DNA of 35,708 bases from a virus (Duplodnaviria > Caudoviricetes): IMG/VR virus record IMGVR_UViG_3300042429_000698, positions 1 through 35,708 of that record. The stretch is one strand, 5' to 3'. Numbering within the stretch: position 1 is the first letter of the stretch; each line of letters starts with the position of its first letter. Positions 1 to 34,644 of this stretch are shown here, in pieces. The notes under the pieces were generated by a model. It saw nothing but the letters and a program-made list of their open reading frames with translations. It had not been told where the DNA came from and searched no databases. The position numbers and the translations under genes were made by a program.

Positions 1-2615
1 CCTCCTGCTGCAAGTCCTGCATTTTGTGTTCCTGCACCTGCAAGTGGGCCGTATCTTGAATTTGACATTGCTCCACCTGCTGACCAAGATGTGCCGTTGT
101 ACTCTTCAGTACAAGTTTCCTTTGTATATGATGCAAAAGCAATACCTTCGTTTTGTGTTCCTGCTGCTGCCAAATAAAATTTTGAAACTGTCATTGCTCC
201 CCCTACTGACCAAGATGTACCGTTGTATTCTTCTGTGCAAGTAAGGGCTGTCCCCGCACCTGTGTCACCTCCCATAGCAAGACCTGCATTCTGTGTTCCC
301 GCTCCTGCTAATAATCTTCTTGCAGTTATCAACGCACCTCCTGCTGACCAAGATGTGCCATTGTATTCTTCTGTACATGAACAATATGCACCCCCCATAA
401 CAAGTCCTTCATTCTGCGTTCCTGCTCCTGCTAAAGCACTTCTTGCTGTTATCAACGCACCGCCTGCTGACCAAGATGTGCCATTATATTCTTCTGCACA
501 GGTTAAGGCTGCATTTATAACACCTCCTGCCGCAAGTCCTGCATTTTGTGTTCCTGCTCCTGCTAATTCTTGTCTTGCTATTATCATTGCACCACCTGCT
601 GACCATGTTGTGCCATTATATTCTTCGGTACAAGAAACTACACCTCCTGCTGTACCTCCTGCTGCAAGTCCTGCATTTTGTGTCCCTGCTCCTGTTAAAT
701 AACCTCTTGCCGTTATTAGTGCACCCCCTGCTGACCATGAACCAACACCTCCAAACCCATAGTAAGATACCATTGGTTTTCTATTAACAGAGTCAAACCA
801 CATACACATTCCTGTTTGTGCTATATAAGGTCTATCTGGATATTGTGCTGTATTATATGATGAATCTAAACTACGGTCAACGATTTCAGTTGGTGCGTTG
901 TATTCTTCAGTGCAAGTTCTAGCAACACCACCTGCTGCACCTCCTGCTGCAAGACCTGCATTTTGTGTTCCTGCTCCTGCAAGTGGGCCATACCTTGCTG
1001 TAGCTAATGCCCCTCCTACTGACCAAGATGTGCCATTGTATTCTTCAGTGCAAGACATACTCACACCCGTATACCCCCCAAAAACAAGTCCTTCATTTTG
1101 TGTCCCTGCTCCTGTTAAATACGGTCTTGCTGTTATCAATGCACCTCCTGCTGACCAACTTGTACCATTGTATTCTTCTGTGCAGGAAATAACCGTATTA
1201 TATGTACCTCCCATAGCAAGTCCTGCATTTTGTGTTCCCGCACCTGCTAATAGTTGTCTTGCGTTTATCATTACACCACCTACTGACCAAGATGTGCCAT
1301 TGTATTCTTCTGTACATAATGCAGGAGAAGGAGTTCCTCCCATAGTAAGACCTGCATTTTGCGTACCTGCTCCTGCACAAAAATATTTTCCTGTTATAAC
1401 TGCACCACCTGATGACCAACTTGTGCCATTGTATTCTTCTGTGCATAGTACTGCTACAGTTGTAAAACCACCTGCTGCAAGACCTTCGTTTTGTGTTCCT
1501 GCTCCTGCCAAAGCATATCTTGCTGTTATCATTGCACCCCCTGCTGACCAACTTGTACCATTGTATTCTTCAGTACAAGTTAATAGATTAGTCCCACCAA
1601 AAGCAAGTCCTGCATTTTGTGTTCCTGCTCCTGCTAAATAACCTCTTGCTGTTATCAAAGCACCTCCTGCTGACCATGAACCCACTAATGATGTGCTGCT
1701 CTTGTAGGAAATCATTGGTATATTGTTTGTCTTATCATACCACAAACACATTCCTGCATCAACTAAGTTAGGTCTTTCAGAATATTCTGCTGTATTATAT
1801 GATGAGTCTAAGCTACGGTCAACAATTTCTATTGGTGCGTTGTATTCTTCGGTGCAGGCTACATTATCACTTGTAAACCCTCCTGCCGCAAGTCCTGCAT
1901 TTTGCGTTCCTGCTCCTGCTAATGTATCTCTTGCCGTTATCAATGCACCCCCTGCTGACCAAGATGTGCCATTGTATTCCTCTGTATTAGATACACCAAC
2001 ACTTGTAAAACCTCCTGCCACAAGTCCTGCATTTTGTGTTCCTGCTACTGCTAAAGAGCTTCTTCCTGTTATTAACGCACCCCCTGCTGACCAAGATGTG
2101 CCGTTGTATTCTTCGGTGCAGGATAGAGATGTAGAGCCTCCTGCTACAAGTCCTTCATTCTGTGTTCCTGCCCCTGCAAAACTTCTTCTTCCCGTTATCA
2201 ATCCACCACCTGCTGACCAAGATGTACCATCATATTCTTCTGTACATGATACACCTGCATTTACATAGCCTCCTGCTGCAAGTCCTGCATTTTGCGTTCC
2301 TGCTCCTGCTAAAGCTCTTCTTGCTGTTATCAATGCACCCCCTGCTGACCATGATGTGCCATTGTATTCTTCTGTGCAAGTTACATTATCACTTGTAAAC
2401 CCTCCTGCCGCAAGTCCTGCATTTTGCGTTCCTGCTCCTGCTAAATTTCTTCTTGCTGTTATTAGTCCACCTCCTGCTGACCAAGACGCACCATTGTATT
2501 CTTCTGTGCAAGTTACATTATCACTTGTAAACCCTCCTGCCACAAGTCCTGCATTTTGCGTTCCTGCTCCTACTAATAATCTTCTTCCACTTATCAACGC
2601 ACCACCTGATGACCA
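1..2615 (-). repeat. Coding tandem repeat: 18 Kelch-like blades (123-138 nt) grouped as 3 x 6, with a 939-nt super-period
   Basis: Trp codons (cca on +) start at 2613, 2481, 2349, 2217, 2091, 1959 | 1674, 1548, 1416, 1287, 1155, 1023 | 735, 603, 471, 348, 210, 84. The linker EEYNAP(I/T)EIVDRSLDSSYNTA is repeated at about 1782-1850 and 841-910. Confidence 0.95.
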
Positions 2616-3320
2616 AGAACCTACTAATGATGTGTTAATACAATAAGAAACCATTGGCATCTTACTTGTGGTGTCAAACCAAATACACATTTTATCCGCA
2701 TCTATTGGTGCTGGTCTTGATTCTGACGATGTTATTAATGCACTTGTTCCAGATGAACCACTTCCACCAGTTACTCCACTACTACCACTACTTCCACTTG
2801 TACCCGAACTACCAGATGAACCACTTGCACCCGTGTTACCACTTGTTCCTGATGAACCGCTTGCTCCTGAACTACCCGTTCCCCCACTTGTGCCTGATGA
2901 ACCACTACTCCCACTTGTGCCAGAACTTCCTGATGAACCACTTGTCCCATTTTGACCAGCAAGTACACTAAATGATAATGAACTACTACCAATTGTTATA
3001 TTGCCACTTGTGGTTAAATAAAATGTTTTACCAGAATAAGTTAATCCTGATAGTACCAAAACTTCAATCCCAGCATAAACATCTTCATTAATATTCATAT
3101 CATAATCACGAACCAAAGATGAACTTTCAACTCTATATATACCGTTATCTTGTTGTAGTGATTGATTCCAAACCAATATTCTATCGCCATAACTAACAGA
3201 AATACCATCAATACTTATTGGTAATGATGATAATGATACATCTAACGTTGTTGCAACTTTACATGGGCGTTTTTTTGTTACAGAAATATTCTGCCCATAT
3301 AAATCAATTCTTGTTGGCAT
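1..3320 (-). CDS. Tail fibre / receptor-binding protein, 3'-truncated by the window edge: N-terminal fibre anchor domain, Gly-X-Ser tract, then at least three six-bladed Kelch-like beta-propellers
   Basis: Not in the ORF track because it has no stop inside the window. Manual translation from ATG at 3320: MPTRIDLYGQNISVTKKRPCKVATTLDVSLSSLPISIDGISVSYGDRILVWNQSLQQDNGIYRV (VATT..IDG..GDRILV.NQ..NGIY phage fibre N-terminal motif), then GTSGSSG repeats, then 18 repeats of consensus WSAGGALITARxxLAGAGTQNAGLAAGGx(4-9)CTEEYNGTS. One frame through to position 3 (at least 1106 codons). The plus-strand ORFs at 223, 898, 1723, 2356 and 2668 are same-phase antisense shadows. Confidence 0.9.
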   Translation of the reverse strand, partial: MPTRIDLYGQNISVTKKRPCKVATTLDVSLSSLPISIDGISVSYGDRILVWNQSLQQDNGIYRVESSSLVRDYDMNINEDVYAGIEVLVLSGLTYSGKTFYLTTSGNITIGSSSLSFSVLAGQNGTSGSSGSSGTSGSSGSSGTSGGTGSSGASGSSGTSGNTGASGSSGSSGTSGSSGSSGVTGGSGSSGTSALITSSESRPAPIDADKMCIWFDTTSKMPMVSYCINTSLVGSWSSGGALISGRRLLVGAGTQNAGLVAGGFTSDNVTCTEEYNGASWSAGGGLITARRNLAGAGTQNAGLAAGGFTSDNVTCTEEYNGTSWSAGGALITARRALAGAGTQNAGLAAGGYVNAGVSCTEEYDGTSWSAGGGLITGRRSFAGAGTQNEGLVAGGSTSLSCTEEYNGTSWSAGGALITGRSSLAVAGTQNAGLVAGGFTSVGVSNTEEYNGTSWSAGGALITARDTLAGAGTQNAGLAAGGFTSDNVACTEEYNAPIEIVDRSLDSSYNTAEYSERPNLVDAGMCLWYDKTNNIPMISYKSSTSLVGSWSAGGALITARGYLAGAGTQNAGLAFGGTNLLTCTEEYNGTSWSAGGAMITARYALAGAGTQNEGLAAGGFTTVAVLCTEEYNGTSWSSGGAVITGKYFCAGAGTQNAGLTMGGTPSPALCTEEYNGTSWSVGGVMINARQLLAGAGTQNAGLAMGGTYNTVISCTEEYNGTSWSAGGALITARPYLTGAGTQNEGLVFGGYTGVSMSCTEEYNGTSWSVGGALATARYGPLAGAGTQNAGLAAGGAAGGVARTCTEEYNAPTEIVDRSLDSSYNTAQYPDRPYIAQTGMCMWFDSVNRKPMVSYYGFGGVGSWSAGGALITARGYLTGAGTQNAGLAAGGTAGGVVSCTEEYNGTTWSAGGAMIIARQELAGAGTQNAGLAAGGVINAALTCAEEYNGTSWSAGGALITARSALAGAGTQNEGLVMGGAYCSCTEEYNGTSWSAGGALITARRLLAGAGTQNAGLAMGGDTGAGTALTCTEEYNGTSWSVGGAMTVSKFYLAAAGTQNEGIAFASYTKETCTEEYNGTSWSAGGAMSNSRYGPLAGAGTQNAGLAAG
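2742..2958 (-). repeat. Collagen-like (Gly-X-Ser)n coding tract
   Basis: GTSGSSGSSGTSG... with Gly at every third residue. Confidence 0.9.
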
Positions 3321-3332
3321 ATATAATTTTTA

Positions 3333-3340
3333 TATAAATA
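3333..3340 (-). promoter_or_regulatory. TATTTATA putative phage late-promoter motif
   Basis: 12 nt upstream of ATG 3320 on the sense strand. The same octamer precedes five other genes. Confidence 0.65.
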
Positions 3341-3342
3341 GT

Positions 3343-6300
3343 TTAATTTTTTTCTAATGCTTTTAATCTTGATTCCATATTGGTTATTAATTGTTTTTGC
3401 TCTTGTATTAATTGGTTTTGCTCTTGTATTGATTTTATTAACAATGGTACAAATTGGTCGTATCTTAAACCTTTTATATCAGTTTCTGTATCATGGATGA
3501 ATCCACCAAAATCTTTACCATCTAATAAGGTTTCAACTTCTTGAGCAATTAAACCATAATGTGTTCTTATACCTTCTCTTGGTGTAATAACTTGTTTAGA
3601 TTCTTCTTCACCATTCTCATTTATTATTGTTTCACTTGTTACTACATTTTGACCAACCTTCCATTTAAATGATACAGGTCTTAATTTATTTATAAAATCT
3701 AAACCTAAATCGGAATCAACAATATCTTTCTTTTCTCTTTCATCAGATGTTTGTATTGTTCCAGTTGCCGCCCATACTGCTGACCACCTTATACCACTAG
3801 CACCTAATGAATATGCATTATCTGTACCTGGTTGAGTGTTACCCCCACTTGTTATTCGCATTCTTTCTGCTAAACCATTTGGGTAGTTTGATGTAGCAAA
3901 AATCATATTAAATCCATAATCAGCATTAGTTGCGTTAACTTTACTTGCTTTAATATATCCAGCTTCAGTTATATCACCTACAGTTCTATAATTCCCACTT
4001 AAAGATAATTTACCACCTACTCCTTGAGCATATACTGTATTATCTTCTATATTTATTGTTCCCGATAAACCTTGTACAGTTAATAATTGTCCTGGACTCG
4101 AAGTTCCAATACCTACAAATCCATTATTACCAATACGCATTCTTTCCAAAAGATTAGTAGCAGACATTGTATAAAAAGCTAAAGCACCATAAGCACTTGA
4201 ACTTATCGCATCTGTAAAAGCAGCTATTCTTGCATTCTCCCAAATATTAGAACTTAATGATATTTTGGTTTTAAATGATATACCGACACTATTACCTTCA
4301 CCACTATTTGTTTGCAATCCTAAACCTAAAGCAGCCGTATATGAAGAAGGGGATACAGTAACATCTAATTTACCATAATCATTTTGTGTACTTCCAATTA
4401 ACACATTGCCAAAGCTTGTGATACGCATAGCCTCACTTCCAGCACCTCCGTTTCCAGTAAATGTTAAAGGGAAACCTCTTAAACTTAATCCTTGTGATGC
4501 GGTACCAGCAGCGTTTGTTCCTATAATTGTTGCAACACTTGAACTTTCTGTAAGTAAAATTGCACTTGAACTATTAGCAACTTGAAGTTTTGTTTGAGGA
4601 CTTGTAGTTCCAATTCCGACGTTGCGATTTGATAATATAGTAAGTGCTGGAGTACTAAATGTACTTCCACCTGCTGTTGTTGAAGGTGTTATTTCTAAAG
4701 CATTATCTACATTCTGTTGAGATGCAATCATAAAGTTGTACTTGGTAGTACCACCTGTAAAATATAATATTTTACCACCACCATCAGTACCTAATATTGA
4801 TAATAAATTTCTTGCCGTAACACTACTACTAAATGTAGCTTCTCCTATTGAAGAAAAATTAAATATATCTCCTGCGGTTGTGTTTCCAGCATATAAACTT
4901 CCATTGCTATAAGAATTAAAATACCAACTTCTACCTGTTGTTGCCGTAGTATTATTAAGAAACAATCTTAAATTTGAAGTTGTTTTTGATATTGTTATAT
5001 CATCTCCTGCCGTTACACTACTAGAGAATGTAGCTGCTCCTGTGTTGTTTATTTGAAAATCAACAGTACCTGAAGTAACTGCACCTGCATTTCCTAAAGA
5101 TGGGTCGGTAGTTGAATCAACCGACCTTATAATTGCAAAAGTAGTATTATTAACTGCATTAGTAATCAGCCATCTTTTTGCTGCTGAAGTCCAAGAACTA
5201 TCAGCGTTAAAAATTAATTTACCATAATCTCCATATCTATTTGAAACATCATAGTAATTAGAGTACCCTTTTAATCTTGTAAGAGAAAGAGATGATTGAG
5301 TATTTGGACTACCACCTATTGTTAAATCTACACTAAACCTTCCTGTACCACTTACATCAAGTTTAAAACCACCAGTTGCAGTATTACCAATCCCAACATT
5401 TGTACCATCATCATATATAATACTATTACCAAGATTTGTTGTCCCTGTGAACTTTGGTATGTAATTACTTGTTCCACTTCCAGATATTTGACTTACTGGG
5501 CTTGTTCCAGATGTTCCACTACTACCTGATGAACCACTTGTTGCGCTAGTACCCGAACTGCCAGATGAACCACTACTTCCACTTGTCCCCAAACTACCAC
5601 TTGTACCACTAGAACCGCTTGCACCCAAACTACCACTTGTTCCAGATGAACCACTTGTTGCACTAGTACCCGAACTTCCACTTGTTCCAGATGAACCATT
5701 ATTACCTATAATAACACCACCATATATTTTTAATATACAATTGGGTGTTGGTGGCAAATTAGAACTATTTATTACTAATGTTGTACCTGATAAAATTTCA
5801 TAATCAATACTATATTGTTGTAATTGACCATTATAAAAAAACAAATGACTATTTGTTTCAACAAATGATGATATTGTAAAAGTTCTATTACTATTATTTT
5901 GTGTTCCAGATATTGATAATTCAGTTAAAGGTGATGCACTAGTTCCACTACTACCACTTGTCCCACTTGTACTTGATGTACCACTACTACCACTTACCCC
6001 CGAACTACCTGATGTACCATTAACACCAATAACTATACCCCCAAATACCTTTAATATATAATTATTTGTTGGTGCACGATTCACTGAACTAATTGTTAAC
6101 TGATTTCCAGATATTGTATAATCAACACCATAATCTTGCAATTGTCCATTTATGAAAAATAAATGTGCCCCTTCATCAACTAATGAATCTAATGTATAAA
6201 CTCTATTTGCCCCATCTTTGGCACCAGTTACACCAACTTCAGTTATTGGTGTAGGGCTAACCCCACTTGTTCCTGAACTACCTGACGCACCAGAACTGCC

Positions 6301-8699: not shown

Positions 8700-11600
8700 T
8701 TAAGAACAACCTCCATAATTAATTGTCATCGCACCATTAGAAGCGACCCCATACCTAAAACCACTATCTGTATGGTAGAAATACAAGGAATAATTATTCC
8801 AGTCATCAATATTGTTTTGACAATTAGATAAAGTACGGTAGAATTTACCTCCAGCATCAAGAGAACCAAGTGTTATTGTCCCTTTATAATAAAAAGTACT
8901 TGTTGTACCCGTACATGCACAAACAAGCGCACCTAAACCACAACCTATAATTGCATTACAAGTCGAACCTATTGGTGTTTGTGATGGTGTTGGTGTAACG
9001 GTATTTGTTGGAGTAACGGTATTTGTTGGCGTATTAGTTGGAGTGTTTGTTGCTGTTTTAGTTGGAGTATTTGATGTTGTTGGTGTATTTGTTGGTGTAT
9101 TTGTAGGTGTATTTGATGCTGTTGGTGTAATTGTATTTGTTGGTGTATTTGTATTTGAGGGAGTATTTGTTGGTGTTGTTGTTTGTGTTGGTGTTATAGT
9201 TGGTGTTGGTGTTGGTGAAAGGCATATTGTATTACCTGTTATAGTACCTAAAGAATTAAACCCATAACAAATACCATCTTTACCAAAAATTCTTTCCCCT
9301 CCCCAAGTTGAGGCATCACTAGTTTCACAAGAATTTTGGAATTTATAATATGTAGAACCATTTGCACCATTAAACGTTGAATATCTTCCCCATATAAATG
9401 CATTTGGTGTGTTACAAACTGTTGAACAATCATTTAACTCACTAATATCTCTGCGAACTGAAAAAAGTTTACATAATGGTAATGTAGGTGTGACTGTTGC
9501 TGTTGGTGTTGCTGTATTAGTTGGTGTTATTGATGGTGTAGGCTGAACAACACAACTAACACTTTGTGATATTTGTATAATACCATTACTACACATAAAT
9601 GAATAAGAACTTAATGTATCTGAAATTGATTTTGCATTATAATAAATAGAACCAGTTAAATAATCACATGATGAAGGTGATGTTTCAACATTTGATATAT
9701 TTTGTTTACACATTGTTTCACCATATGAAGGGACACTAATATTGAAATAAATATTATCATTTGTAGTTAATGGAGTTCCAGATGGGACTCTAACATAACC
9801 TGTAAATGTATTACCAGTTATTGGACAATTATTATTATAAGTTAGATTTGAGGCTGTAAATGTCCTAGCATAACAAAAAACTGTTGTTGGTGTGACTGTT
9901 TGTGTTGAGGTAACTGTTTTTGTTGGCGTTATTGAAGGTGTGTTAGATGGTGTTGATGTTGGTGTAATTGAAGGTGTGTTAGATGGTGTGTTAGATGGTG
10001 TTGATGTTGGTGTAATTGTTGGTAGTGGTGTGACACCAGTACATGGAATTGCAGCATATGACCCTTGAAGGGGTAAATAATGCCTCCAAGGTGTAGGACT
10101 TGAAAAGTCAGTAAAAAAGCTAATAAATGTATAACAAATTCCATTTAATATTGCTTTAAATGGTTCATTTGTGAACCCACTTGTACCAAAAGAATCAACA
10201 CCACTTGGTCCATTACTTAAACAAGCTGAATTAGTTTCATAAATTTCTATATTATTAAGTGTACCACTTAAATTTGCAAATGCACTATAAATTGTAAATG
10301 TTGTTGGTGATCCACCATTACAAGCATCTGTACAACCTGTCCAAGATGTATAATAATTACCAGTATTTGCTTTGCTAAATGTATGGGCATAACAAAATGG
10401 TGTTACTGTTGGTGTTATAGTATTTGTTGGTGTGTTTGTTGGTGTTATAGTATTTGTTGGTGTATTTGTTAGTGTTATAGTATTTGTTGGTGTGTTTGTT
10501 GGTGTTATAGTTATTGTTGGTGTTATAGTTCTTGTTGGTGTTATTGTGTTTGTTGGAGTATTTGTTGGGGTATTTGTTGAAGTAATTGTTGGTGTTGGTG
10601 TTGGCAAAATAGTTGGGCAAGATAACACCATTTCAAAAACCCCTCCAATTTCTTGACTGACTACTTGAACATTAACAACTGTTGGGTAATTTAATGTCTT
10701 TGTGAATCCAGAGGAAACATAACCATTAAAAGTATTTGAACTAATAACAGTTGATGAATTCCAAACCACATTAAAACTTGCATTAGTATTTGTAACAATA
10801 TCTATAACAATAGGACCAGTATTAACACCAACATCAAATGTGTAATTATAATTTGCTTTTTGACCAATATTATTTACAATATTTGTATCACAATTTGCAG
10901 TAAAACTATAATTACCATAACTTGTTGGTGTTTGTGTATTCGTTGGTGTTTGCGTGTTAGTTGGTGTTTGGGTGTTAGTTGGTGTATTTGTTGGTGTTGG
11001 TGTATTTGTTGGTGTTGGTGTATTTGTTGGCGTAGATGTATTAGTTGGTGTAGATGTATTAGTTGGTGTAATAGTGCTAGTTGGCGTATTTGTTGGTGTT
11101 TCACTATTGGTTGGGGTAATTGTGTTAGTAGGCGTATTAGTAGGTGTAACCGTATTTGTTGGTGTATTTGTTGGTGTCTCAGTAGGTGTAGGAGTATTTG
11201 TCGGTGTTTCAGTAGGTGTAGGTGTGTTTGTTGGTGTCTCGGTATTTGTCGGAGTAATCGTATTTGTCGGAGTAATCGTATTTGTCGGAGTAATGGTATT
11301 AGTTGGTGTATTTGTCGGTGTTGATGTGTTAGTTGGTGTTGTCGTATTAGTTGGTGTTTGAGTATTTGTAGGTGTATTTGTGCTTGTAGGTGTAGGTGTG
11401 TTTGTTTTTGTAGGAGTATTTGTTGGCGTAACCGTATTTGTTGGTGTATTTGTATTTGTTGGTGTGTTCGTATTTGTAGGCGTTGGCGTCTTTGTTGGAG
11501 TTGCAGTATTTGTTGGTGTTGGTGTTGGTGTAACACATAAAGTTTTACCTGTTATAACCCCAAGCGAATTTGTGGCATAGCAGTAATCATCTTTACTAAA

Positions 11601-12800
11601 GTTCTTTGCTTCTACCCAATTACTATCATTATTATTCAAACATGATTCAAAATCAATATAATATTTTTGGCCAATTTCACCGTTAAATAAATTTGTTTTT
11701 CCGCATATTTCGGTATTTGATGGTAATCCACAAACACCATAACAAGATAATGTAGCTGGGCTTGATGAATCTAAATAGACATCAAAACAATTGCAATTAT
11801 TTATATCTGGAATTAATGAATTACCTCTAAAATATAACTTATTATTATTATTCATTAATCTAAAATTCGTATTGCTAAATGTTGTATAAACATGATAATA
11901 ATCTTGTGGAATTGTAAGTCCACTATATATTACAGTTAAGCCAGCATATAATAAATTTGTGGCTACTGGTACTAATGCAGCAGGATCACTATATTCATTA
12001 ACACCAATATTACTAACAAGATTATTGTTTGTATTTAATTTAGGTATAACCCAAGTGTACCAAGAATATCCAGTTGTTAAATATGCTGGCACTTCATGTG
12101 TCTTAAACAAATATGCTTGAATTAAATTACCATAATCATCAAATCCACCACTAGTTTGTGATATTTTTGCTGTTCTAACTTGTGGAGCATTTACCCCCCA
12201 ACCAGAAAATGATATATATCTATTAAGTTGACTACTAAATGTATCACCGCTTGTTGATGGTCCAATACCATTTGAAAATCCCCTAAATAAACTACCTCCA
12301 GATGACATCCAAGAATTAAATTCCAAATTCAAACTGACTGGCTCAATAAATAAATAAGCATCATATTCTTCTGGTGATGTTGGAGTAACTGTTGGCGTTA
12401 TGGTCGGTGTTGAAGTGTTTGTCTTTGTTGGAGTTAAAGTTGGTGTTTGTGTATTAGTTGATGTTATTGATGGCGTTGGCGTCTTTGTTGGCGTCTTTGT
12501 TGGTGTCTTTGTTATAGTTGGTGTTATGCTTATAGTTGGTGTTATAGTTGGTGTTGGAGTTGGAGTTGTACATAATATTTCAACTGTTACACCAAATAAA
12601 AATTCATCTCTTGTTATATTAGTATATATTGGCACACTATTAATTGTATCCAAATATACATCAAATGGACCTTTTGAATGTGATGATGAATTTAATTGTA
12701 AGAAATACCTTGAACAAGAAGTAACACCTGTTATGATGTTCTCAATGCTATTTTCGCATATTGGATCAGTATTTATTACAATTAATTTATATGTTGCCAT
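8700..12800 (-). CDS. Mucin-like Thr/Pro-repeat multidomain structural protein (putative fibre or adhesin) with Cys-bounded modules
   Basis: 1366-aa ORF. Six TPTNT-type tracts alternate with ~85-120-aa Cys-rich domains, two of which are clearly homologous (FNG..G..YY..F.SC..W...F.KD..CY..NSLG.ITG.T.C). Confidence 0.8.
8972..12570 (-). repeat. Thr-Pro-Thr-Asn low-complexity coding tracts (longest about 10920-11532, ~200 codons)
   Basis: gttggtgt/gtattt-rich blocks at about 12375-12570, 10920-11532, 10395-10605, 9885-10030, 9480-9545 and 8972-9220. Confidence 0.9.
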
Positions 12801-13352
12801 TTAACAATTTATTATTTTGAAAAAACTACAAGAATCCACATCTTTTATGGTAACAATAACTTGATTTGACCCAGAAAATCTATTAGGTACATCAATACTC
12901 ACGGGTAATATTCCTGTATTCGTTATTGTTGCAACATAAGTTTCATAATTCCCATTTATGTCTGATACATAAATACCAAATGGTGGCGTTCCTGTTATAC
13001 TTGTTAAAGTTATTTTATTATTTGATGTTGCAATTGGAATATATCCAGGTGTTGAAGATGGAGTTGGTGTTGGAGTTGGTGTTATTGATGTTATATTTGT
13101 TATACTATAAACAATATCGCAATCTATATAACAATTTAATTTCTTTGTTGTTCTGCACCCCTCACTATCTTGAATAATAATGGTAACTTGTGGAGATGAA
13201 TTAAATATAATAGGTAAACTATATGTTATATTACCAACCAAAGGCAATGATGTTACTTGACCCAGATAGGTCTCATTACCCCCAAATGCATCAGATACAT
13301 ATATATTTAAAGGCGTTGTTCCACTTATACTACTAATGATGATGTTTGTCAT
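12801..13352 (-). CDS. Small structural protein made of two homologous ~72-aa beta domains joined by a TP linker
   Basis: ISSISGTTPLNIYVSDAFGGNETY..QVTIIIQDSEGCRTTKKLNC versus LTSITGTPPFGIYVSDINGNYETY..QVIVTIKDVDSCSFFKIINC. Abuts or overlaps both neighbours. Confidence 0.8.
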   Translation of the reverse strand: MTNIIISSISGTTPLNIYVSDAFGGNETYLGQVTSLPLVGNITYSLPIIFNSSPQVTIIIQDSEGCRTTKKLNCYIDCDIVYSITNITSITPTPTPTPSSTPGYIPIATSNNKITLTSITGTPPFGIYVSDINGNYETYVATITNTGILPVSIDVPNRFSGSNQVIVTIKDVDSCSFFKIINC

Positions 13353-15508
13353 ACGGAACAGCTAATATTATATATTATTTTTAAGTTTATGGTTAAAACT
13401 TGCGATGTTATGCTATTATTAGGTTCGGCAATTATATTTAATTTATTCGTAACCAAATCATATGAAACACTATCAATACCAGATATTGCCTCAACCAATG
13501 TTTTTATTGCATCAACATAAACTGAATCTGTCGGAACATCTGTTCTAGTATAACCAGTAAAAAATGAATTACTATTTGTTAAACCACTTGGCTGCAATGT
13601 ATATTCTACCTTAAATATTGCAGAATTTAATGAACATTTAGGATCCAGTATTGTGGTTGATCCACTAAATTCAGCATTAACTAAATCAGAGAACCCCTCA
13701 TTTAGGAAATCCAATAATCCGAAATTATTTAAAGGTTGTAATACAAATGTCTGTGAATTAACTATATATGTTTGGTATGACGTGGTAACTGTAAAGCAAT
13801 TTATTGCTGTTTCTCTTGTTAATGTACAACCATTGGAATCCGCTATCGTTAAACTATAATTACCACTAGTTAATCCACTTGCTATTATTGATTGCGGATT
13901 ACCACTCACATTACTTGACCAGTTAAATGTAAAAGGGGGAATCCCTTTTGTTATCAATGCCGTAATTACAGCGTCATTACCGTTCACACAAGATGTTGGG
14001 TATAATGAAAAATCAACACCATTGCTCGATGTTACTTGAATATTCTTTGTTTGCTCGCAGCCTGTTGAATCAATAACCCTTAAAAGATATTGACCCTCTG
14101 TTAAGTTTTGGAATGTTACCCCAGTTAAATTTGTATCAATAATTGATGTTGTATCCAAATAGTAATCAAAGGGTGGTGTAGCGCCTGTGCTAACGTAAGC
14201 AAATAAACTGCCGTTATTTGATGCACAAGTTGTCCCACTTAATGAATGATTTAATGTGAATTTATTCTCTGCAATTATTATAATTTCACTATCATAATAA
14301 CATCCAGCAGAATCCTCCATATATGCCGTATACGTACCACTACTTAAATTCTCAAAAATATAATTTGTTGATGTTGTGGTAATAATTGTTGTATCACCAC
14401 TTGATTTTATCAAACCATAATTATATGGTCCCGTTCCACCAACAACGCTAATATTTATTAAACCATCTGATGCCGAACAAGTTGAGTTAGTCCCATCTAT
14501 TGAAACTGATGTAACCCCATTATCATTATTTAATGATGCGGTAAAATCTAATGTACATAACCCAGCATCAATAACTGAAATATCATAATTACCAGAAGTC
14601 AATCCAGTCATTACAAAATTTCTATCATAAGTTATATCATAATACCCAGTATTGGCTGAATAATAGAAGGGGGCTGTGCCACCACTTATGGTAATATCTA
14701 ATTTACCAGTTGCGGTAAAACAAGTTGGTTGCGTTAAAATAATTTGTACAACACCTAATGAAGCGGTATCAGTCACTTCAATATTTTTAATTTTTGAATT
14801 ACCTTGTCCATCTGTAACTTGTACAGAATATACTCCAGCAGTTAAACCAGTTAATGTACTGCCTGTTGTATTGTCAACCCAAAGATAAGAATATGGTCCA
14901 GGATTTGTTTGACCCGTTACAAATATTTTACCTGTTGGTGTTGAATAACAAGATGAATTATTAATAACATATAAACCAAAATCAAAAGCATTTGATGTAT
15001 TAATAATAAAACTTTCTGTTTTTGCCGTACAACCACCAAAATCATTAGCCGTTAAATAATATGTTCCAGCACTCAAACTTCCAAATTCAACTAAATCTGA
15101 ATTATTTGTTTGATTATATACTAAATTACCATTAGTAGAATAAAGATTATATTCAACAGCAGAAAATTCAGATGTTGTTGATACTGAAACTGAACCATTA
15201 TTTTCCGCATTATTTGTATTAACTGTAGATTGAATTGACGCACAACAACCGCTAGAAACTGGTATATTTATATAAAATTCTAAATTCTGGTCTAATGTCG
15301 AATCATTAACCCTAACACCATATGTTGCACCAGATAACCCGGTTTTATATATCGGAAATACTTCAGTTGTTATACTTACCCCCAAAGGTGGGTCAACCCA
15401 CTCAATTGTATATGGTGCAGTTCCACCAGTTAATGATAAAGATATAGCACCAACATTTATGTTTGAACAATCCCCAGTTACGCTTAAAAAATAATCAAAT
15501 GCTGCCAT
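13349..15508 (-). CDS. SprB-repeat-containing structural protein
   Basis: About 7 repeats of the type C...G.I.(L/I)..(S/T)GGT.PY.Y.W....LTGL.AG.Y.V.V.D..GC, e.g. GPYSYLWVDNTTGSTLTGLTAGVYSVQVTDGQG and SGLTSGNYSLTIADSNGC. Confidence 0.8.
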   Translation of the reverse strand: MAAFDYFLSVTGDCSNINVGAISLSLTGGTAPYTIEWVDPPLGVSITTEVFPIYKTGLSGATYGVRVNDSTLDQNLEFYINIPVSSGCCASIQSTVNTNNAENNGSVSVSTTSEFSAVEYNLYSTNGNLVYNQTNNSDLVEFGSLSAGTYYLTANDFGGCTAKTESFIINTSNAFDFGLYVINNSSCYSTPTGKIFVTGQTNPGPYSYLWVDNTTGSTLTGLTAGVYSVQVTDGQGNSKIKNIEVTDTASLGVVQIILTQPTCFTATGKLDITISGGTAPFYYSANTGYYDITYDRNFVMTGLTSGNYDISVIDAGLCTLDFTASLNNDNGVTSVSIDGTNSTCSASDGLINISVVGGTGPYNYGLIKSSGDTTIITTTSTNYIFENLSSGTYTAYMEDSAGCYYDSEIIIIAENKFTLNHSLSGTTCASNNGSLFAYVSTGATPPFDYYLDTTSIIDTNLTGVTFQNLTEGQYLLRVIDSTGCEQTKNIQVTSSNGVDFSLYPTSCVNGNDAVITALITKGIPPFTFNWSSNVSGNPQSIIASGLTSGNYSLTIADSNGCTLTRETAINCFTVTTSYQTYIVNSQTFVLQPLNNFGLLDFLNEGFSDLVNAEFSGSTTILDPKCSLNSAIFKVEYTLQPSGLTNSNSFFTGYTRTDVPTDSVYVDAIKTLVEAISGIDSVSYDLVTNKLNIIAEPNNSITSQVLTINLKIIYNISCSV

Positions 15509-21056: not shown

Positions 21057-21962
21057 TTAATTTTTTATACATCTAATAGAATATCCATTATTCCTATCAT
21101 CACATTGGAAATCCAAATTATCATTGTTATATTTTAATTGAACTATTTTAGCAAAATTACTCCCGCAACCATTAGTAGTACTTGTCCAATATGTAGTGGT
21201 CTCCCCAAAATAAATAAAATCACTGCCATATGCAAATTCTCTTCTACCAGCAGGATAAGCATTAAACCCACTACTATTCGTCGCTCCATCATTTGGTAAT
21301 TGCCACCAAACAGATCCGCTTGTTTTCATCTTCCCACCAGAAACACCATTACCCCCTAAATAATTAGATAACGTTTCAAAATCAGTTAGTGTCGGCACTC
21401 TATAACCTGTTGGGCATAAACTAATTGCATTACTTACTGAATAAAAATTATACAAATAACCAAAACAACTATCTATACTATTATTATTATACGCACAATA
21501 AGCGCCACTTCTTAATATCTTCCAACTATTATCATTTGTCACATTAGGTATAGGTGTACCATTATCATATCTTGTTGTTCTTAGATTTTCTGTAAACCAA
21601 GTTTGTGTACCAATAGTAGCCGTGCCATAAAAATTACCATCATAATCCCTAACATATGTAGTACCAGAACAAACATTAACATTTGTTAATGTACCTCCAG
21701 AATTAACATTAAATACAACCCCATTTGTGCTACTAACATACCAACCTGCCGCCAATTTAACCCTATTAGTATCATACAAAATATCACCAATCTCAATGGT
21801 CTGGGGCGTTCTTTGTGTTGACACATATAACTTATCGCAATCACCCACACAAGTTGTTGGAGTTGTTACACAAAATATTGATGAACAAGCATCTCCACTA
21901 GTAGCATGATTAAACCAACTTGAACAAGAAGGTGATGGTGCATATATATTAAATTCACTCAT
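21057..21962 (-). CDS. Fib_succ_major (FISUMP, C-type-lectin-like fold) domain protein with an N-terminal Cys-rich module
   Basis: DYDGNFYGTATIGTQTWFTENLRT..GYLYNFY..LCPTGYRVPT..NSSGFNAYPAGRR..YWTST..GYSIRCIK matches the family signature. Confidence 0.88.
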   Translation of the reverse strand: MSEFNIYAPSPSCSSWFNHATSGDACSSIFCVTTPTTCVGDCDKLYVSTQRTPQTIEIGDILYDTNRVKLAAGWYVSSTNGVVFNVNSGGTLTNVNVCSGTTYVRDYDGNFYGTATIGTQTWFTENLRTTRYDNGTPIPNVTNDNSWKILRSGAYCAYNNNSIDSCFGYLYNFYSVSNAISLCPTGYRVPTLTDFETLSNYLGGNGVSGGKMKTSGSVWWQLPNDGATNSSGFNAYPAGRREFAYGSDFIYFGETTTYWTSTTNGCGSNFAKIVQLKYNNDNLDFQCDDRNNGYSIRCIKN

Positions 21963-21963
21963 A

Positions 21964-22521
21964 TTATGTACAATTTTGATTAAATACTATTAAGTTATTA
22001 GATGAATAATACCTTAACTCTGTCGCTGATGGTGTTGGTGTCGGAGTTGGTGTTACACTATTGGTAGGCGTAACTGTTCTTGTTGGTGTTGTAGTTACAG
22101 TTATAGATGGTGTTATAGAAGCTGTTGGTGTCATAGATGAAGTTATAGATGGAGTTGGCGTATTACTTGAGGTTATTGTCGGTGTGGTTGTTTTAGTTGG
22201 TGTTATAGTTGGTGTAACCGTACTAGTTGGGGTAACCGTAGGTGCATTAGTTCTAGTTGGAGTTGGGGTAACAGTCTTGGTTGGTGTAGGGGTTGGGGTA
22301 CTAGTTTTTGATGGTAGGGGGAAGCCTTCTATTAATCCGCTATGAGAAAACCTAACTACTTCATAATCAATTACTGCGTTGATAGAGTTACTTAATATAT
22401 CCTCACCGTAACTATTTATCGTATCTTGTTGACCAACATTATCAAAATCCATCTTAATGGGTAAACTTATTGTTATATCATTAAGTTTAGGTTGTAGTAA
22501 TCTATATTTATTCACACTCAT
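21964..22521 (-). CDS. Hypothetical structural protein: short N-terminal domain plus Thr/Pro tract
   Basis: 185-aa ORF with a TP repeat at about 22025-22315. Overlaps the upstream gene by 14 nt. Confidence 0.75.
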
Positions 22522-31893: not shown

Positions 31894-34644
31894 CTACGAT
31901 TCACAACTCACACACTCATTAATATTTCTTGCAAATGATTGTGCTGAACTCTGGCTAAACTGATAGTAAAGCGTCTTAACCCCCTCTTCATGTGCATATA
32001 GATATAATTGATTTATATCCTTTGCTGGAACTGATGGGTGTATCATCAAATTTAATGACTGTGATTGGTCAATAAATTTTTGCCTCTGGGCTGCTTGTAA
32101 TATCAACTCTTTTGGTGATATTTCAATAAATGATTTAAATACCTCTTTTGTGGGGAAATCCAAATGCTGAACCGATCCATCTTTCTTTAAAATACTTTCC
32201 CAGGTATCTGGTGTATTTAAACCATACTTATCCAATTCAATTTCCAAAAATGGATTCTTATAAATTGTTTTTGATTTAGCCAAATCTTTAATAAAATAAT
32301 TTGATTTGATTGGCTCAATACCCATACTTACTTGCCCTAGAATAAAAGAACTTGACTTGGTTGGGGCAATAGCAATTAATGTTGTGTTGGCATAACCCTC
32401 TCTTAAACATTTATATCCCTTCTCTTCATATAAATATTTTGAAGCTAATTCAGATTTTTCTTTAATTGTTTTAAATATTTGATGATTTAATTGCTTTGCC
32501 ATCAAAGATTCAAATTGAATTAATTTAGATTGGAATAATGAATGGTAACCCAAAACCCCCAAACCAATTGCTCTGTGTTGTGATGCAAATCTATTAGCTC
32601 TTTTCATACCAGCCATTTTACCTGACTTCAATATAAATTCATCCATAACTGCATTTAAGAACATTGTATAAACCTCAATTGCATCAGTCTCAATTATCTC
32701 ATCCCAATGAAGTAAATTCAATGAACCCAAACAACAAACAAACGAGTTTAATGAATCTGTTGGTAATTGAATTTCTGAACAATTAAAAGTCTTTAGTCCA
32801 TTTGATACAAAAATATGTTCATCATTATATACTGTTGGGCAATAAACTGGCTCATTATCTACTTGTTCAATTGAAACGACTTTTGCTCTTTTCTTAGTAT
32901 TATCTCTATACTCCCTATCTTCAATAATAACATTCTTTCTTGTTAAGAACCCAGTTTTTTCTTCAATAATTAAAGCATCATTTTTACTTCCAAAAATTAA
33001 TCTCCAACAATCTTTAGATGTATAATATTTATGCCCACCCTTACCATCAGGTAATAAACTTTGACCTTCTTTTCTTAAAAGACGAATAGAACAACTAAGA
33101 CCTAAATTAGTACATAAAATTTGTAACTCACTTAAAAATTCTTTATTGATATCAGCATAGGAAATTTGTATTGGTTCACCTTTGCTATCACTCTTAAACA
33201 CAGTTCCATCAGCATACAATAAACCTCTTAAATACGCCCAAATAGTATCCTCATTTGATTCCCAAATCCAAGATGGAACATAACCTTTTTCAAAATTTAA
33301 TGCTTTTTTAAGTGTTCTTGATGTTAATCTTTTTTTCTTAACAAGAGATTGACTAACTTTTGAATCAAAGAAAGTTGCTGGTTTTCTAGTTCTTGTCCCA
33401 ACTATATCACCTGTCTGATTTTTAACACCATATGTATCACAACCATACTTATAATGTATTTTATTAAATTTTTCTTGGATATCATCAATCAAATCAAAAT
33501 CATTCTCCCAAACATCAATCATCAAATTATCCTTATCTTGAGTTCCATCTGATTGATATAAACCCAACAAGTAAGCCTCATCCTGCATATCTAATTCACC
33601 AAACAAACCTTTATTTGTTTGTAATGCAACATAATCACCAATTTTCAAATCCTTTGCTTCAACTCTTACAATATCTTTTGTAGTGTCATTAAAAACTGGA
33701 ATTCCATGATTAAATGTTACCTTTTGGGTCATTCCATTTGAATATGTTATTTTTAGAATTTCAGCATCCTCATTCCTCAATAACATAGGAGTTGATTTAA
33801 CTTCCTCTTCACCATTAAACAACACCAATTCATCACCCATCTCATATAACTCTTTTACAGTTAGATATCCTTTTGATGTGACAACTCTTTGGTCTTCTGT
33901 TAAACATAAATTTGAGGCAGTTATCTCCATACCCAACTCTTTGTAGGGGGAATTGTTATTTGAGTTATCCTTAAACATAATATATGGAAAACCAAACTCA
34001 TTACGTCTTTGAATAATCTTTGCCCAGATTTTTCTCTTGCTTGGGTCACCCCCCTTCATATCATTAATCCAATTATCTGTAACAGTAACACCATATTGTA
34101 AATTCTGGATTGGATTACCTTCTGTTCCAATATCAAGAAACTCCATAATATCCTCATGTTCAACTGGCAACCAAACTGCACATGCACCCCTTCTTGCCTC
34201 TGATTGTTTGCAAACATCAACTACTGTGTCATACACCCTTGCATAATGAACTGGTCCATCTGCTGTACCACCTGTTGATATTTTAGTTCCCCTTGCTCTA
34301 ATATTACCTAAATAAGCACTAGTTCCACCACCATATTTTGACATCATACCAATCTCCCTTCCAGCATTCAAAATACTGTCCAAAGTATCATCAATATTGG
34401 ATCCATAGCAGGATATGGGCAACCCCTTTTCTTTACCAAAATTAATCCATACTGGTGTAGAAAGGCTATAAAAACCCCTTGCCATATATTCCTCAAACTT
34501 AACAGCAAACCCATCAATTTTTAAATACCCCTCTGCTTTATTAGCAATATCTTTAATCCTTTGCTCGGGGGTTTCACTAATATACCCCCTTGATAAGAAA
34601 AGCCTGCTCTCATCATTTAACCAATAATATTTTTCTTTATTCAT
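31894..34644 (-). CDS. nrdA: Class I ribonucleotide reductase alpha subunit, intein-containing (541 aa after splicing, no ATP cone)
   Basis: STPVWIN, PISCY, GGGTS, RRGACAVWL, SNL|CSEI, VCCLGSLNL, RAIGLGVLG, IAPTKSSS, DQSQSLNL, KTLYY, and C-terminal CVSC. Confidence 0.97.
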   Translation of the reverse strand: MNKEKYYWLNDESRLFLSRGYISETPEQRIKDIANKAEGYLKIDGFAVKFEEYMARGFYSLSTPVWINFGKEKGLPISCYGSNIDDTLDSILNAGREIGMMSKYGGGTSAYLGNIRARGTKISTGGTADGPVHYARVYDTVVDVCKQSEARRGACAVWLPVEHEDIMEFLDIGTEGNPIQNLQYGVTVTDNWINDMKGGDPSKRKIWAKIIQRRNEFGFPYIMFKDNSNNNSPYKELGMEITASNLCLTEDQRVVTSKGYLTVKELYEMGDELVLFNGEEEVKSTPMLLRNEDAEILKITYSNGMTQKVTFNHGIPVFNDTTKDIVRVEAKDLKIGDYVALQTNKGLFGELDMQDEAYLLGLYQSDGTQDKDNLMIDVWENDFDLIDDIQEKFNKIHYKYGCDTYGVKNQTGDIVGTRTRKPATFFDSKVSQSLVKKKRLTSRTLKKALNFEKGYVPSWIWESNEDTIWAYLRGLLYADGTVFKSDSKGEPIQISYADINKEFLSELQILCTNLGLSCSIRLLRKEGQSLLPDGKGGHKYYTSKDCWRLIFGSKNDALIIEEKTGFLTRKNVIIEDREYRDNTKKRAKVVSIEQVDNEPVYCPTVYNDEHIFVSNGLKTFNCSEIQLPTDSLNSFVCCLGSLNLLHWDEIIETDAIEVYTMFLNAVMDEFILKSGKMAGMKRANRFASQHRAIGLGVLGYHSLFQSKLIQFESLMAKQLNHQIFKTIKEKSELASKYLYEEKGYKCLREGYANTTLIAIAPTKSSSFILGQVSMGIEPIKSNYFIKDLAKSKTIYKNPFLEIELDKYGLNTPDTWESILKKDGSVQHLDFPTKEVFKSFIEISPKELILQAAQRQKFIDQSQSLNLMIHPSVPAKDINQLYLYAHEEGVKTLYYQFSQSSAQSFARNINECVSCES
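32782..33906 (-). mobile_element. Intein with LAGLIDADG homing endonuclease (375 aa)
   Basis: Starts CLTEDQRVVT (residue 247). Block B VTFNHGI, endonuclease motifs AYLLGLYQSDG and AYLRGLLYADG, ends VYCPTVYNDEHIFVSNGLKTFN before +1 Cys. Confidence 0.95.

What the first reader, a model, noticed from the sequence alone, without database searches (positions are those of the whole stretch)
1..2740. Uncalled fibre gene with tandem Kelch propellers: constant framework and two hypervariable loops per blade (antibody/VLR-like receptor array)
Seen: 18 blades share an almost invariant scaffold (WSAGGALITAR / LAGAGTQNAGL / CTEEYNGTS), often identical at DNA level. Differences concentrate in two windows. 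After the Arg: RLL, RNL, RAL, RSF, SSL, DTL, GYL, YAL, YFC, QLL, PYL, YGPL, QEL, SAL, FYL. After the GG: FTSDNVT, YVNAGVS, STSLS, TNLLT, FTTVAVL, TPSPAL, TYNTVIS, YTGVSMS, AAGGVART, VINAALT, AYCS, DTGAGTALT. Known: in Kelch domains such as KEAP1 these are the DA and BC loops that form the ligand-binding face. Inference: near-identical framework DNA acts as crossover sites for shuffling loop cassettes among blades, giving a reverse-transcriptase-independent way to diversify a multi-headed receptor-binding protein.
Basis: partly seen in the sequence, partly recalled or inferred. Interest (0 to 1): 0.85.

Follow-up and report, generated by a model that had tools for sequence, protein, structure and literature searches.

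The report
Mosaic three-propeller phage fibre gene
A lake phage gene encodes a fibre-like protein with three predicted six-bladed Kelch propellers whose whole heads, part-heads and single surface loops have been exchanged with other blades and other phages, likely by ordinary recombination, and which likely serves to grip host cells; no antibody-like shuffling machine was found.

Summary
Observation mostly right; mechanism half right. Window 3320→1 (minus strand; 1131 aa in the independent record L004) encodes a collagen-like stalk and three six-bladed Kelch propellers (model pLDDT 88; Z 28 to Keap1). The two variable windows align with the DA and BC loops. Frameworks are 83% alike in DNA, not 'often identical'. 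Mosaicism is real at three scales: propeller 2 is 92% identical, blade for blade, to the first propeller of another phage's gene; the last 2.5 blades share a 309-nt tract with a third phage, starting just after a different loop; 11 pairs of identical 7-codon loops occur against 0.03 expected. But 25 same-strain assembly pairs show no loop replacement, no silent cassettes or reverse transcriptase were found, and loop pN/pS is about 1. Best reading: a likely trimeric virion adhesin diversified over evolutionary time by homologous recombination in the frameworks, working like Podospora HNWD repeats or T-even gp38, not like VLRs. The family is very large (594 viral loci), and this scan noted it on other DNA at least nine times. 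I found no paper describing it. Binding is untested.

The parts
1..3320 (-). Fibre gene, 1106 codons here, open at the contig end; 1131 aa in L004 (6001-9396)
   Evidence: 0 differences from L004 over these 3320 nt
2874..3281 (-). N-terminal domain (aa 14-149) like phage head-decoration / virion structural proteins; likely virion anchor
   Evidence: phrog_2647 E 6.6e-12, phrog_24595 E 1.5e-7
2742..2957 (-). Collagen-like G-x-y (GSS/GTS) stalk, aa 122-193
   Evidence: PF01391 E 1.3e-7; coordinates
2616..2717 (-). Beta-hairpin module (CxWFD...PMVSY) before propeller 1
   Evidence: homologous hairpin forms the predicted trimer interface
1839..2615 (-). Propeller 1, blades 1-6; blades 1, 2 and 6 carry copies of one 81-87 nt patch with loop FTSDNV (2571-2491, 2445-2359, 1923-1840), also in the neighbouring paralog
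1677..1838 (-). Linker 1 with hairpin
   Evidence: 95-96% DNA identity to linkers of L002 and of the paralog
897..1676 (-). Propeller 2, blades 7-12; 1695-835 is 92.1% identical over 861 nt, without gaps, to the first propeller of a gene in L006, same blade order
738..896 (-). Linker 2 with hairpin (predicted trimer interface)
1..737 (-). Propeller 3, blades 13-18 (blade 18 cut by the contig end); 308-1 is a tract shared with L015 (293 of 309 nt) that begins right after a different post-Arg loop
3343..8625 (-). Context: upstream collagen-like tail-fibre gene with S74 chaperone; block 3867-4604 is replaced in L004

Best explanation
The gene encodes a likely virion-attached, predicted trimeric fibre whose three predicted Kelch propellers likely bind host-surface molecules through their DA and BC loops, and whose blades are a mosaic of DNA patches shared with other blades, a paralog and other phages, likely moved by ordinary homologous recombination in the conserved frameworks. 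Steps: (1) shown: constant framework, two variable loops, Kelch homology; (2) predicted: six-bladed fold with both loops on the ligand face, and a trimer held by the linker hairpins, which would give nine heads of three kinds per fibre; (3) shown: shared tracts at three scales (whole propeller, 2.5 blades, 60-110 nt single-loop patches) and a framework-only conversion between near-identical strains; (4) inferred: crossovers and gene conversions start in 25-60 nt of framework homology, end beside the unlike loops, homogenise the frameworks across the whole gene pool and re-pair post-Arg with post-GG loops, while point mutation and indels create new loops; (5) inferred: host-range or adhesion selection keeps the diversity. 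The process acts over evolutionary time, not in each infection.
For: Fold: AlphaFold with a 50-row alignment, pLDDT 88.1, pTM 0.83; best structural matches KLHL17 Z 29.2 (rmsd 2.1, 236 aligned), KLHL12 Z 28.6, Keap1 Z 28.4; the profile hits Keap1 at E 2.6e-9 and aligns Arg, GG, Tyr and Trp with the Kelch consensus; DA and BC loops form the Kelch binding face (PMC4668279, PMC3597819; passages). Virion role: head-decoration-like N-terminus, collagen stalk; neighbours are fibre and baseplate genes; among 120 listed homologs, 7 carry an S74 chaperone, 3 collagen, 2 Mtd_N, 1 a tail-fibre repeat; a Kelch protein is part of the virion of jumbo phage CBB (PMC5259590, passages). Trimer: score 0.46, best of 3 controls 0.00; the mark was reached by 20 of 30 solved pairs and 1 of 23 single chains (rough here: own alignment, three copies); runs agree in at least 62% of contacts, pLDDT at least 86; interface in the linker hairpin and C-terminal strand. 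Mosaicism: unit 2 vs L006 92.1% over 861 nt; 309-nt tract with L015, loop RLL vs YRF just before it; L001 vs L002 10 differences in 1950 nt over units 2-3 but unit 1 with wholly different loops; among 89 seven-codon loops from 148 blades, 11 of 3916 pairs are identical in DNA vs a null mean of 0.027, 0 of 1000 shuffles reaching it; of 19 identical-loop pairs among 308 blades only 2 share the post-Arg loop and 6 the blade index; identity decays away from the shared loop (adjacent frameworks 0.92 and 0.93 vs background 0.80 and 0.85; far framework 0.855 vs 0.805; post-Arg loop 0.56 vs 0.49); L053 carries a 51-nt exact copy of the next blade's framework where the 98%-identical L054 differs at 7 sites; four-fold sites in frameworks are 63% identical vs 39% expected from codon use, and nearly alike within genes (0.643) and between loci (0.625).
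Against: No experiment shows the protein in a virion or binding anything; the host is unknown. Positive selection was not shown: in 10 orthologous blade pairs pN/pS is 0.14 in frameworks, 0.37 in the post-Arg loop and 1.02 in the post-GG loop; loop pN does not exceed loop pS (Fisher p 0.47), which fits relaxed constraint as well. All-pair values (post-Arg 1.42-1.49) are near saturation and not a valid test. Loop exposure was inferred from alignment to Kelch domains, not computed from coordinates. Pfam Kelch_1 recognises 1 of 50 family members, and only at E 0.014. Some shared loops could be whole-blade duplications followed by divergence (L071 blades 2/4 and 3/5). Breakpoint positions are blurred because 80%-alike frameworks extend any alignment up to the next loop.
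Confidence: 0.65

Rival explanations
1. Same protein and same recombination, but the propellers are non-specific decorations, spacers or decoys; the loops vary only because they are free of constraint.
For: Loop pN/pS about 1, not above; propeller genes are unchanged between strains whose other fibre genes differ (window vs L004; L029 vs L030); N-terminus resembles head-decoration proteins.
Against: Variation sits on the Kelch ligand face; the first post-Arg residue is aromatic/His in 126 and Arg/Lys in 57 of 308 blades, the first post-GG residue aromatic/His in 143 of 308, as expected of binding surfaces (inference); whole heads are swapped while stalks and linkers persist.
Confidence: 0.2
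2. A dedicated antibody/VLR-like system shuffles loop cassettes at a high rate within lineages.
For: Loop patches are copied out of register; contigs of lake runs show small clustered variants in blades 17-18 and alternative blade ends in the paralog.
Against: 0 loop replacements in 25 same-strain assembly pairs from 13 strain groups (groups from repeated sampling are not independent, and assemblies give majority alleles); no silent cassettes: 96 of 96 framework-motif hits in 5 sequences lie in long frames; no recombinase or RT among 17 window proteins; no RVT_1 in 5 records; no adenine bias in loop differences (0.595 vs 0.623 and 0.657 vs 0.601 expected).
Confidence: 0.06
3. The propellers act inside the infected cell as substrate adaptors that bind host proteins, as Kelch domains do in eukaryotes and poxviruses.
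For: Closest solved folds are cytoplasmic adaptors.
Against: Collagen stalk, head-decoration-like N-terminus, structural-gene neighbourhood and S74/Mtd_N fusions in homologs.
Confidence: 0.06
4. The mosaic pattern is an artefact of assembling repeats from mixed lake communities.
For: Exact framework runs up to 63 nt; short joints in run contigs did prove to come from another co-occurring phage.
Against: Two separate records give the identical gene; shared tracts carry their own substitutions (68 of 861 and 16 of 309 nt), so they are not the same molecule; exact contig pieces of 128-284 nt from other runs bridge blade and linker junctions.
Confidence: 0.03

Closest known systems
Podospora anserina HNWD genes (het-d, het-e, het-r), WD40 propeller repeats (PMC1805685, PMC2873952; abstracts read)
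   Same: Propeller repeats in a multigene family exchanged within and between genes, concerted evolution, variable residues on the interaction face, repeat-number change.
   Different: Fungal intracellular NLR with WD40 repeats; four positively selected codons shown there, not shown here; here the variable parts are two loops with indels, the frameworks are about 83% alike, and whole heads move between phages.
T-even gp38 adhesins (PMC3157838; passages read)
   Same: Phage host-recognition protein with conserved glycine-rich motifs between hypervariable segments; exchanges occur in or near the conserved motifs.
   Different: Unrelated fold, one small domain with four segments exchanged between allelic genes; here 18 blades per chain exchange also out of register, and binding is untested.
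Kelch six-bladed propellers (Keap1, KLHL12, KLHL17; designed SAKe proteins)
   Same: Fold, GG/Tyr/Trp/Arg consensus, variable DA and BC loops.
   Different: Shorter blades (39-49 aa), far higher internal identity, units start at the Trp strand and end at the Tyr strand, tandem on a fibre, no BTB domain.
Kelch-domain virion proteins of jumbo phages (Pectobacterium phage CBB gp550/552/554; PMC5259590; passages read)
   Same: Kelch propeller in a large myophage; one detected in virions; structurally similar to the model (E 1.8e-11 and 1.2e-9).
   Different: 12-15% identity, single propellers, no near-identical framework or mosaicism reported.
Lamprey VLR assembly (PMC3308329; passages read) and diversity-generating retroelements
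   Same: Patchwork copying guided by short homology between repeat modules (VLR); variable binding face on a phage fibre (DGR).
   Different: No incomplete recipient gene, no silent cassette array, no deaminase or RT, no adenine bias, no within-lineage diversification seen.

Membership tests
Kelch-repeat beta-propeller | Six four-stranded blades superposing on solved Kelch domains | tested here: met
   Model pLDDT 88; Z 29.2 KLHL17, 28.4 Keap1, rmsd 2.1-2.3 over 236 residues; prediction, not a solved structure
Kelch-repeat beta-propeller | GG after strand B, Tyr in strand C, Trp in strand D | tested here: met
   Columns; profile alignment to Kelch proteins, Keap1 E 2.6e-9; definition from PMC4668279
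Kelch-repeat beta-propeller | Pfam Kelch_1 match over the curated cut-off | tested here: inconclusive
   No hit for the window protein; 1 of 50 members at E 0.014; two more distant homologs do hit
Phage fibre / receptor-binding protein | Trimeric fibrous stalk with virion anchor, in a structural module | tested here: met
   Collagen repeat, head-decoration-like domain, fibre and baseplate neighbours; trimer model 0.46 vs best control 0.00; all by prediction or homology
Phage fibre / receptor-binding protein | Present in the virion and binds a host receptor | not testable with these tools
   Uncultured phage, host unknown
HNWD-like concerted repeat diversification (works like; not a member of the gene family) | Repeat exchange within and between genes | tested here: met
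HNWD-like concerted repeat diversification (works like; not a member of the gene family) | Positive selection on interaction-face codons | tested here: inconclusive
   pN/pS 1.02 and 0.37 in loops of 10 orthologous blade pairs vs 0.14 in frameworks; no codon-model test run
HNWD-like concerted repeat diversification (works like; not a member of the gene family) | Repeat-number variation | tested here: met
   Relatives have 1, 2 or 3 units; the paralog in L004 has a three-blade middle unit
VLR/antibody-like programmed assembly | Array of non-expressed donor cassettes beside an incomplete gene | tested here: not met
   All 96 framework-motif hits in window, L004, L001, L015, L018 are in long frames; only fetched stretches examined; the window's genome is a fragment
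VLR/antibody-like programmed assembly | Diversification within one lineage | tested here: not met
   0 loop replacements in 25 same-strain pairs; consensus assemblies hide minor variants
Diversity-generating retroelement | Reverse transcriptase gene | tested here: inconclusive
   None in the window or in 5 related records, 2 at least 90% complete; own genome incomplete
Diversity-generating retroelement | Adenine-specific variation without indels | tested here: not met
   No adenine excess; loop lengths 0-12 aa

The most novel reading that the evidence does not exclude
Lake jumbo phages share one recombining library of propeller heads and loop cassettes: trimeric fibres display nine Kelch heads of three specificities, and framework-guided gene conversion re-pairs DA and BC loops across blades, paralogs and unrelated phages fast enough to retune host range, a phage counterpart of the fungal HNWD recognition repertoire and a natural version of a loop-grafted binding scaffold.
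Probability: 0.3. Interest if true: 0.72.

Novelty: new variant of a known kind. Interest (0 to 1): 0.46.

Why it matters
The family is very common in aquatic phages (594 loci in IMG/VR; 706 proteins at E 1e-50 or better among 7980 scored) yet five literature searches found no paper on it; subscription papers and all supplements were outside my view. If these heads bind hosts, they are a large unrecognised class of phage adhesins that diversify without a reverse transcriptase, and single 300-aa heads are easy to express and test. The mechanism itself (recombination in conserved motifs between variable segments) has precedents in gp38 and HNWD, so the surprise is moderate.

Tried and rejected
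First fold used a single sequence with wrong unit boundaries: pLDDT 54, not used. Single-sequence search of solved structures: no hit. tblastn of unit 2 against 50,697 GenBank phages: no match; the low-complexity filter may be responsible, since phrog_27227 matches at E 2e-143. Joints in run contigs at blade 7 and at the first hairpin looked like loop variants, but 2 of the 3 inserted strings I checked are stretches of another co-occurring phage (L042-L051): rejected as variants. Depth differences along the gene and uncovered units in run X19 were not used: contigs cannot rank parts of a gene. No raw or long reads were offered (22 runs, all contigs). The linker-pattern scans gave only 6 viral contigs already known and 3 metagenome contigs. 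All-pair pN/pS rejected as near saturation. Rows dropped: 12 of 160 blades as duplicates; 41 of 349; 8 of 33 locus pairs were not same-strain (7 without a match, 1 with a 381-nt piece). The blade parser misses some divergent blades. Alignment A3 held an empty row and was redone. 'Kelch' in PMC11972413 was an author's name; PMC7029224 has no mention of Kelch or propellers.
Full report
What is there. The window is a 35.7-kb fragment of a large AT-rich myophage: all long genes lie on the minus strand and include ribonucleotide reductase with an intein, baseplate wedge proteins and several fibre genes. The stretch is held by lake-water metagenomes (18 of 22 listed runs). CheckV rates the 42.6-kb sister record at 15% complete, which implies a jumbo genome. 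The finding is the 3' part of an open frame that starts at 3320 and runs off the contig. A separate record, L004, has no difference over these 3320 nt and gives the full 1131 aa: an N-terminal domain like head-decoration proteins, a collagen-like stalk, a hairpin module, and three units of six blades, 313 aa apart, joined by linkers that end in the same hairpin. Downstream in L004 lie a 2OG-Fe(II) oxygenase and a paralog with 6+3+6 blades.

Observation check. The loop lists are right and the entropy contrast is strong: 0.45 bits in frameworks against 2.4-3.1 bits at most loop positions, with 18 of 18 loop pairs distinct. The claim of frequent DNA identity is overstated: mean 82.6%, identical segments in 0 of 153, 1 of 136 and 1 of 136 pairs, longest exact run 63 nt. 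Frameworks are still more alike at four-fold sites than codon use explains (63% vs 39%), and about as alike between loci (0.625) as within genes (0.643), so the blades behave as one common pool.

Structure. Unit 3 folded with a 50-row alignment gives pLDDT 88.1 and matches KLHL17, KLHL12 and Keap1 at Z 29.2, 28.6 and 28.4 (Foldseek agrees). The family profile hits solved Kelch proteins by sequence and aligns the Arg, GG, Tyr and Trp positions, which puts the post-Arg window in the DA loop and the post-GG window in the BC loop. These loops make the binding face of Keap1 and other Kelch domains (PMC4668279, PMC3597819; passages). Exposure was not computed from coordinates. Three copies of linker plus unit 3 scored 0.46 against a best control of 0.00; the mark was reached by 20 of 30 solved pairs and 1 of 23 single chains, counts that hold only roughly here; runs agree in at least 62% of contacts, pLDDT at least 86; the interface is the linker hairpin and the C-terminal strand, leaving the loops free. 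This supports, and does not show, a trimer with nine heads.

Mosaicism. Whole heads: window 1695-835 is 92.1% identical over 861 nt, gap-free, to the first propeller of a gene in L006 that has another N-terminus, with all six blades in the same order; L001 and L002 differ at 10 of 1950 nt over units 2-3 but have different loops throughout unit 1. Part heads: window 308-1 shares 293 of 309 nt with L015, beginning right after a different post-Arg loop (RLL vs YRF). Single loops: an 81-87 nt patch carrying FTSDNV sits in blades 1, 2 and 6 and in the paralog. Among 89 seven-codon loops, 11 of 3916 pairs are identical in DNA against a null mean of 0.027, never reached in 1000 column shuffles. In a wider set of 308 blades, 19 pairs have identical post-GG loops; 2 of them share the post-Arg loop, 6 the blade index, 8 the gene; conversely 12 pairs share the first framework plus post-Arg loop and none has the same post-GG loop, though about half of these are similar loops of orthologous blades. 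Identity falls off with distance from the shared loop. L053 holds a 51-nt exact copy of the next blade's framework where L054, 98% identical, differs at 7 sites: a recent out-of-register conversion that moved no loop.

Rate and machinery. Of 33 locus pairs compared, 25 were same-strain (13 groups); none shows a replaced loop. Window and L004 differ by a replaced block in the neighbouring S74 fibre gene but not in this gene. Contigs of four lake runs show a three-base patch in the framework of blade 17 and a four-base change in the last loop at part of the depth, a weak hint of small conversions in the population; other joints were traced to another phage. No silent cassettes (96 of 96 motif hits in long frames), no RT in the window or 5 related records, and no adenine bias. 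In 10 orthologous blade pairs the loops take far more amino-acid change than the frameworks (Fisher p 1.6e-5) but pN/pS is 1.02 and 0.37, not above 1.

Mechanism. Shown: constant scaffold, variable loops, shared tracts at three scales. Predicted: fold, loop face, trimer. Inferred: recombination starts in framework homology, ends beside unlike loops, keeps frameworks alike and re-pairs loops; new loops arise by mutation and indels; the heads bind host surfaces. Support for a virion role is indirect: architecture, neighbours, fusions in homologs to S74 (7), collagen (3), Mtd_N (2) and a tail-fibre repeat (1) among 120 listed, and a Kelch protein in the virion of phage CBB (PMC5259590; passages).

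Comparison and novelty. It works like Podospora HNWD repeats (PMC1805685, PMC2873952; abstracts and section lists; lead taken from earlier notes) and like gp38, where exchanges fall in or near conserved motifs (PMC3157838; passages). It fails the defining tests of VLR assembly (PMC3308329; passages) and of DGRs. The family is large (594 viral loci; 706 proteins). Five searches found no paper on it (listings only); supplements were not seen and may hold annotations of such genes. This scan noted the same family in at least nine other windows; those notes agree but are not evidence. What this window adds is traceable donors for two of its three heads and a trimer model. Verdict: real, a new variant of a known kind, interest 0.46.

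Noticed in passing
window 3867-4604 vs L004 4915-5454: In the upstream S74 fibre gene a block before the chaperone is replaced between two otherwise 99.9% identical records (1760 vs 1694 aa); both versions start after the same repeated GIGTTSP motif, a likely module swap.
   Followed up: partly
L004 10085-13165: Paralog with 6+3+6 blades; the three-blade middle unit cannot close alone. Run contigs suggest other versions: in X1 its first blade joins a loop YVNAAVA (also in L017, L072) and then a linker; in X1, X5 and X7 another blade end precedes its second linker.
   Followed up: partly
L004 9437-10024: 2OG-Fe(II) oxygenase gene between the two collagen-stalk propeller genes; could modify fibre proteins (inference).
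   Followed up: no
window 8700-12800, 21964-22521: Large Thr/Pro-repeat, Cys-containing proteins without Pfam match in the structural block; mucin-like, possibly flexible virion appendages.
   Followed up: no
window 31894-34644: Ribonucleotide reductase large subunit with an intein carrying a LAGLIDADG domain.
   Followed up: no
window 13349-15508, 21057-21962, 3321-3345: SprB repeats, a Fib_succ_major domain and an AT-rich leader without an obvious Shine-Dalgarno site hint at a Bacteroidota host (recalled association, untested).
   Followed up: no
L006 5974-16665: One locus holds at least seven propeller genes, mostly single heads; L042-L051, L012, L049, L074, L075 hold triplets.
   Followed up: partly
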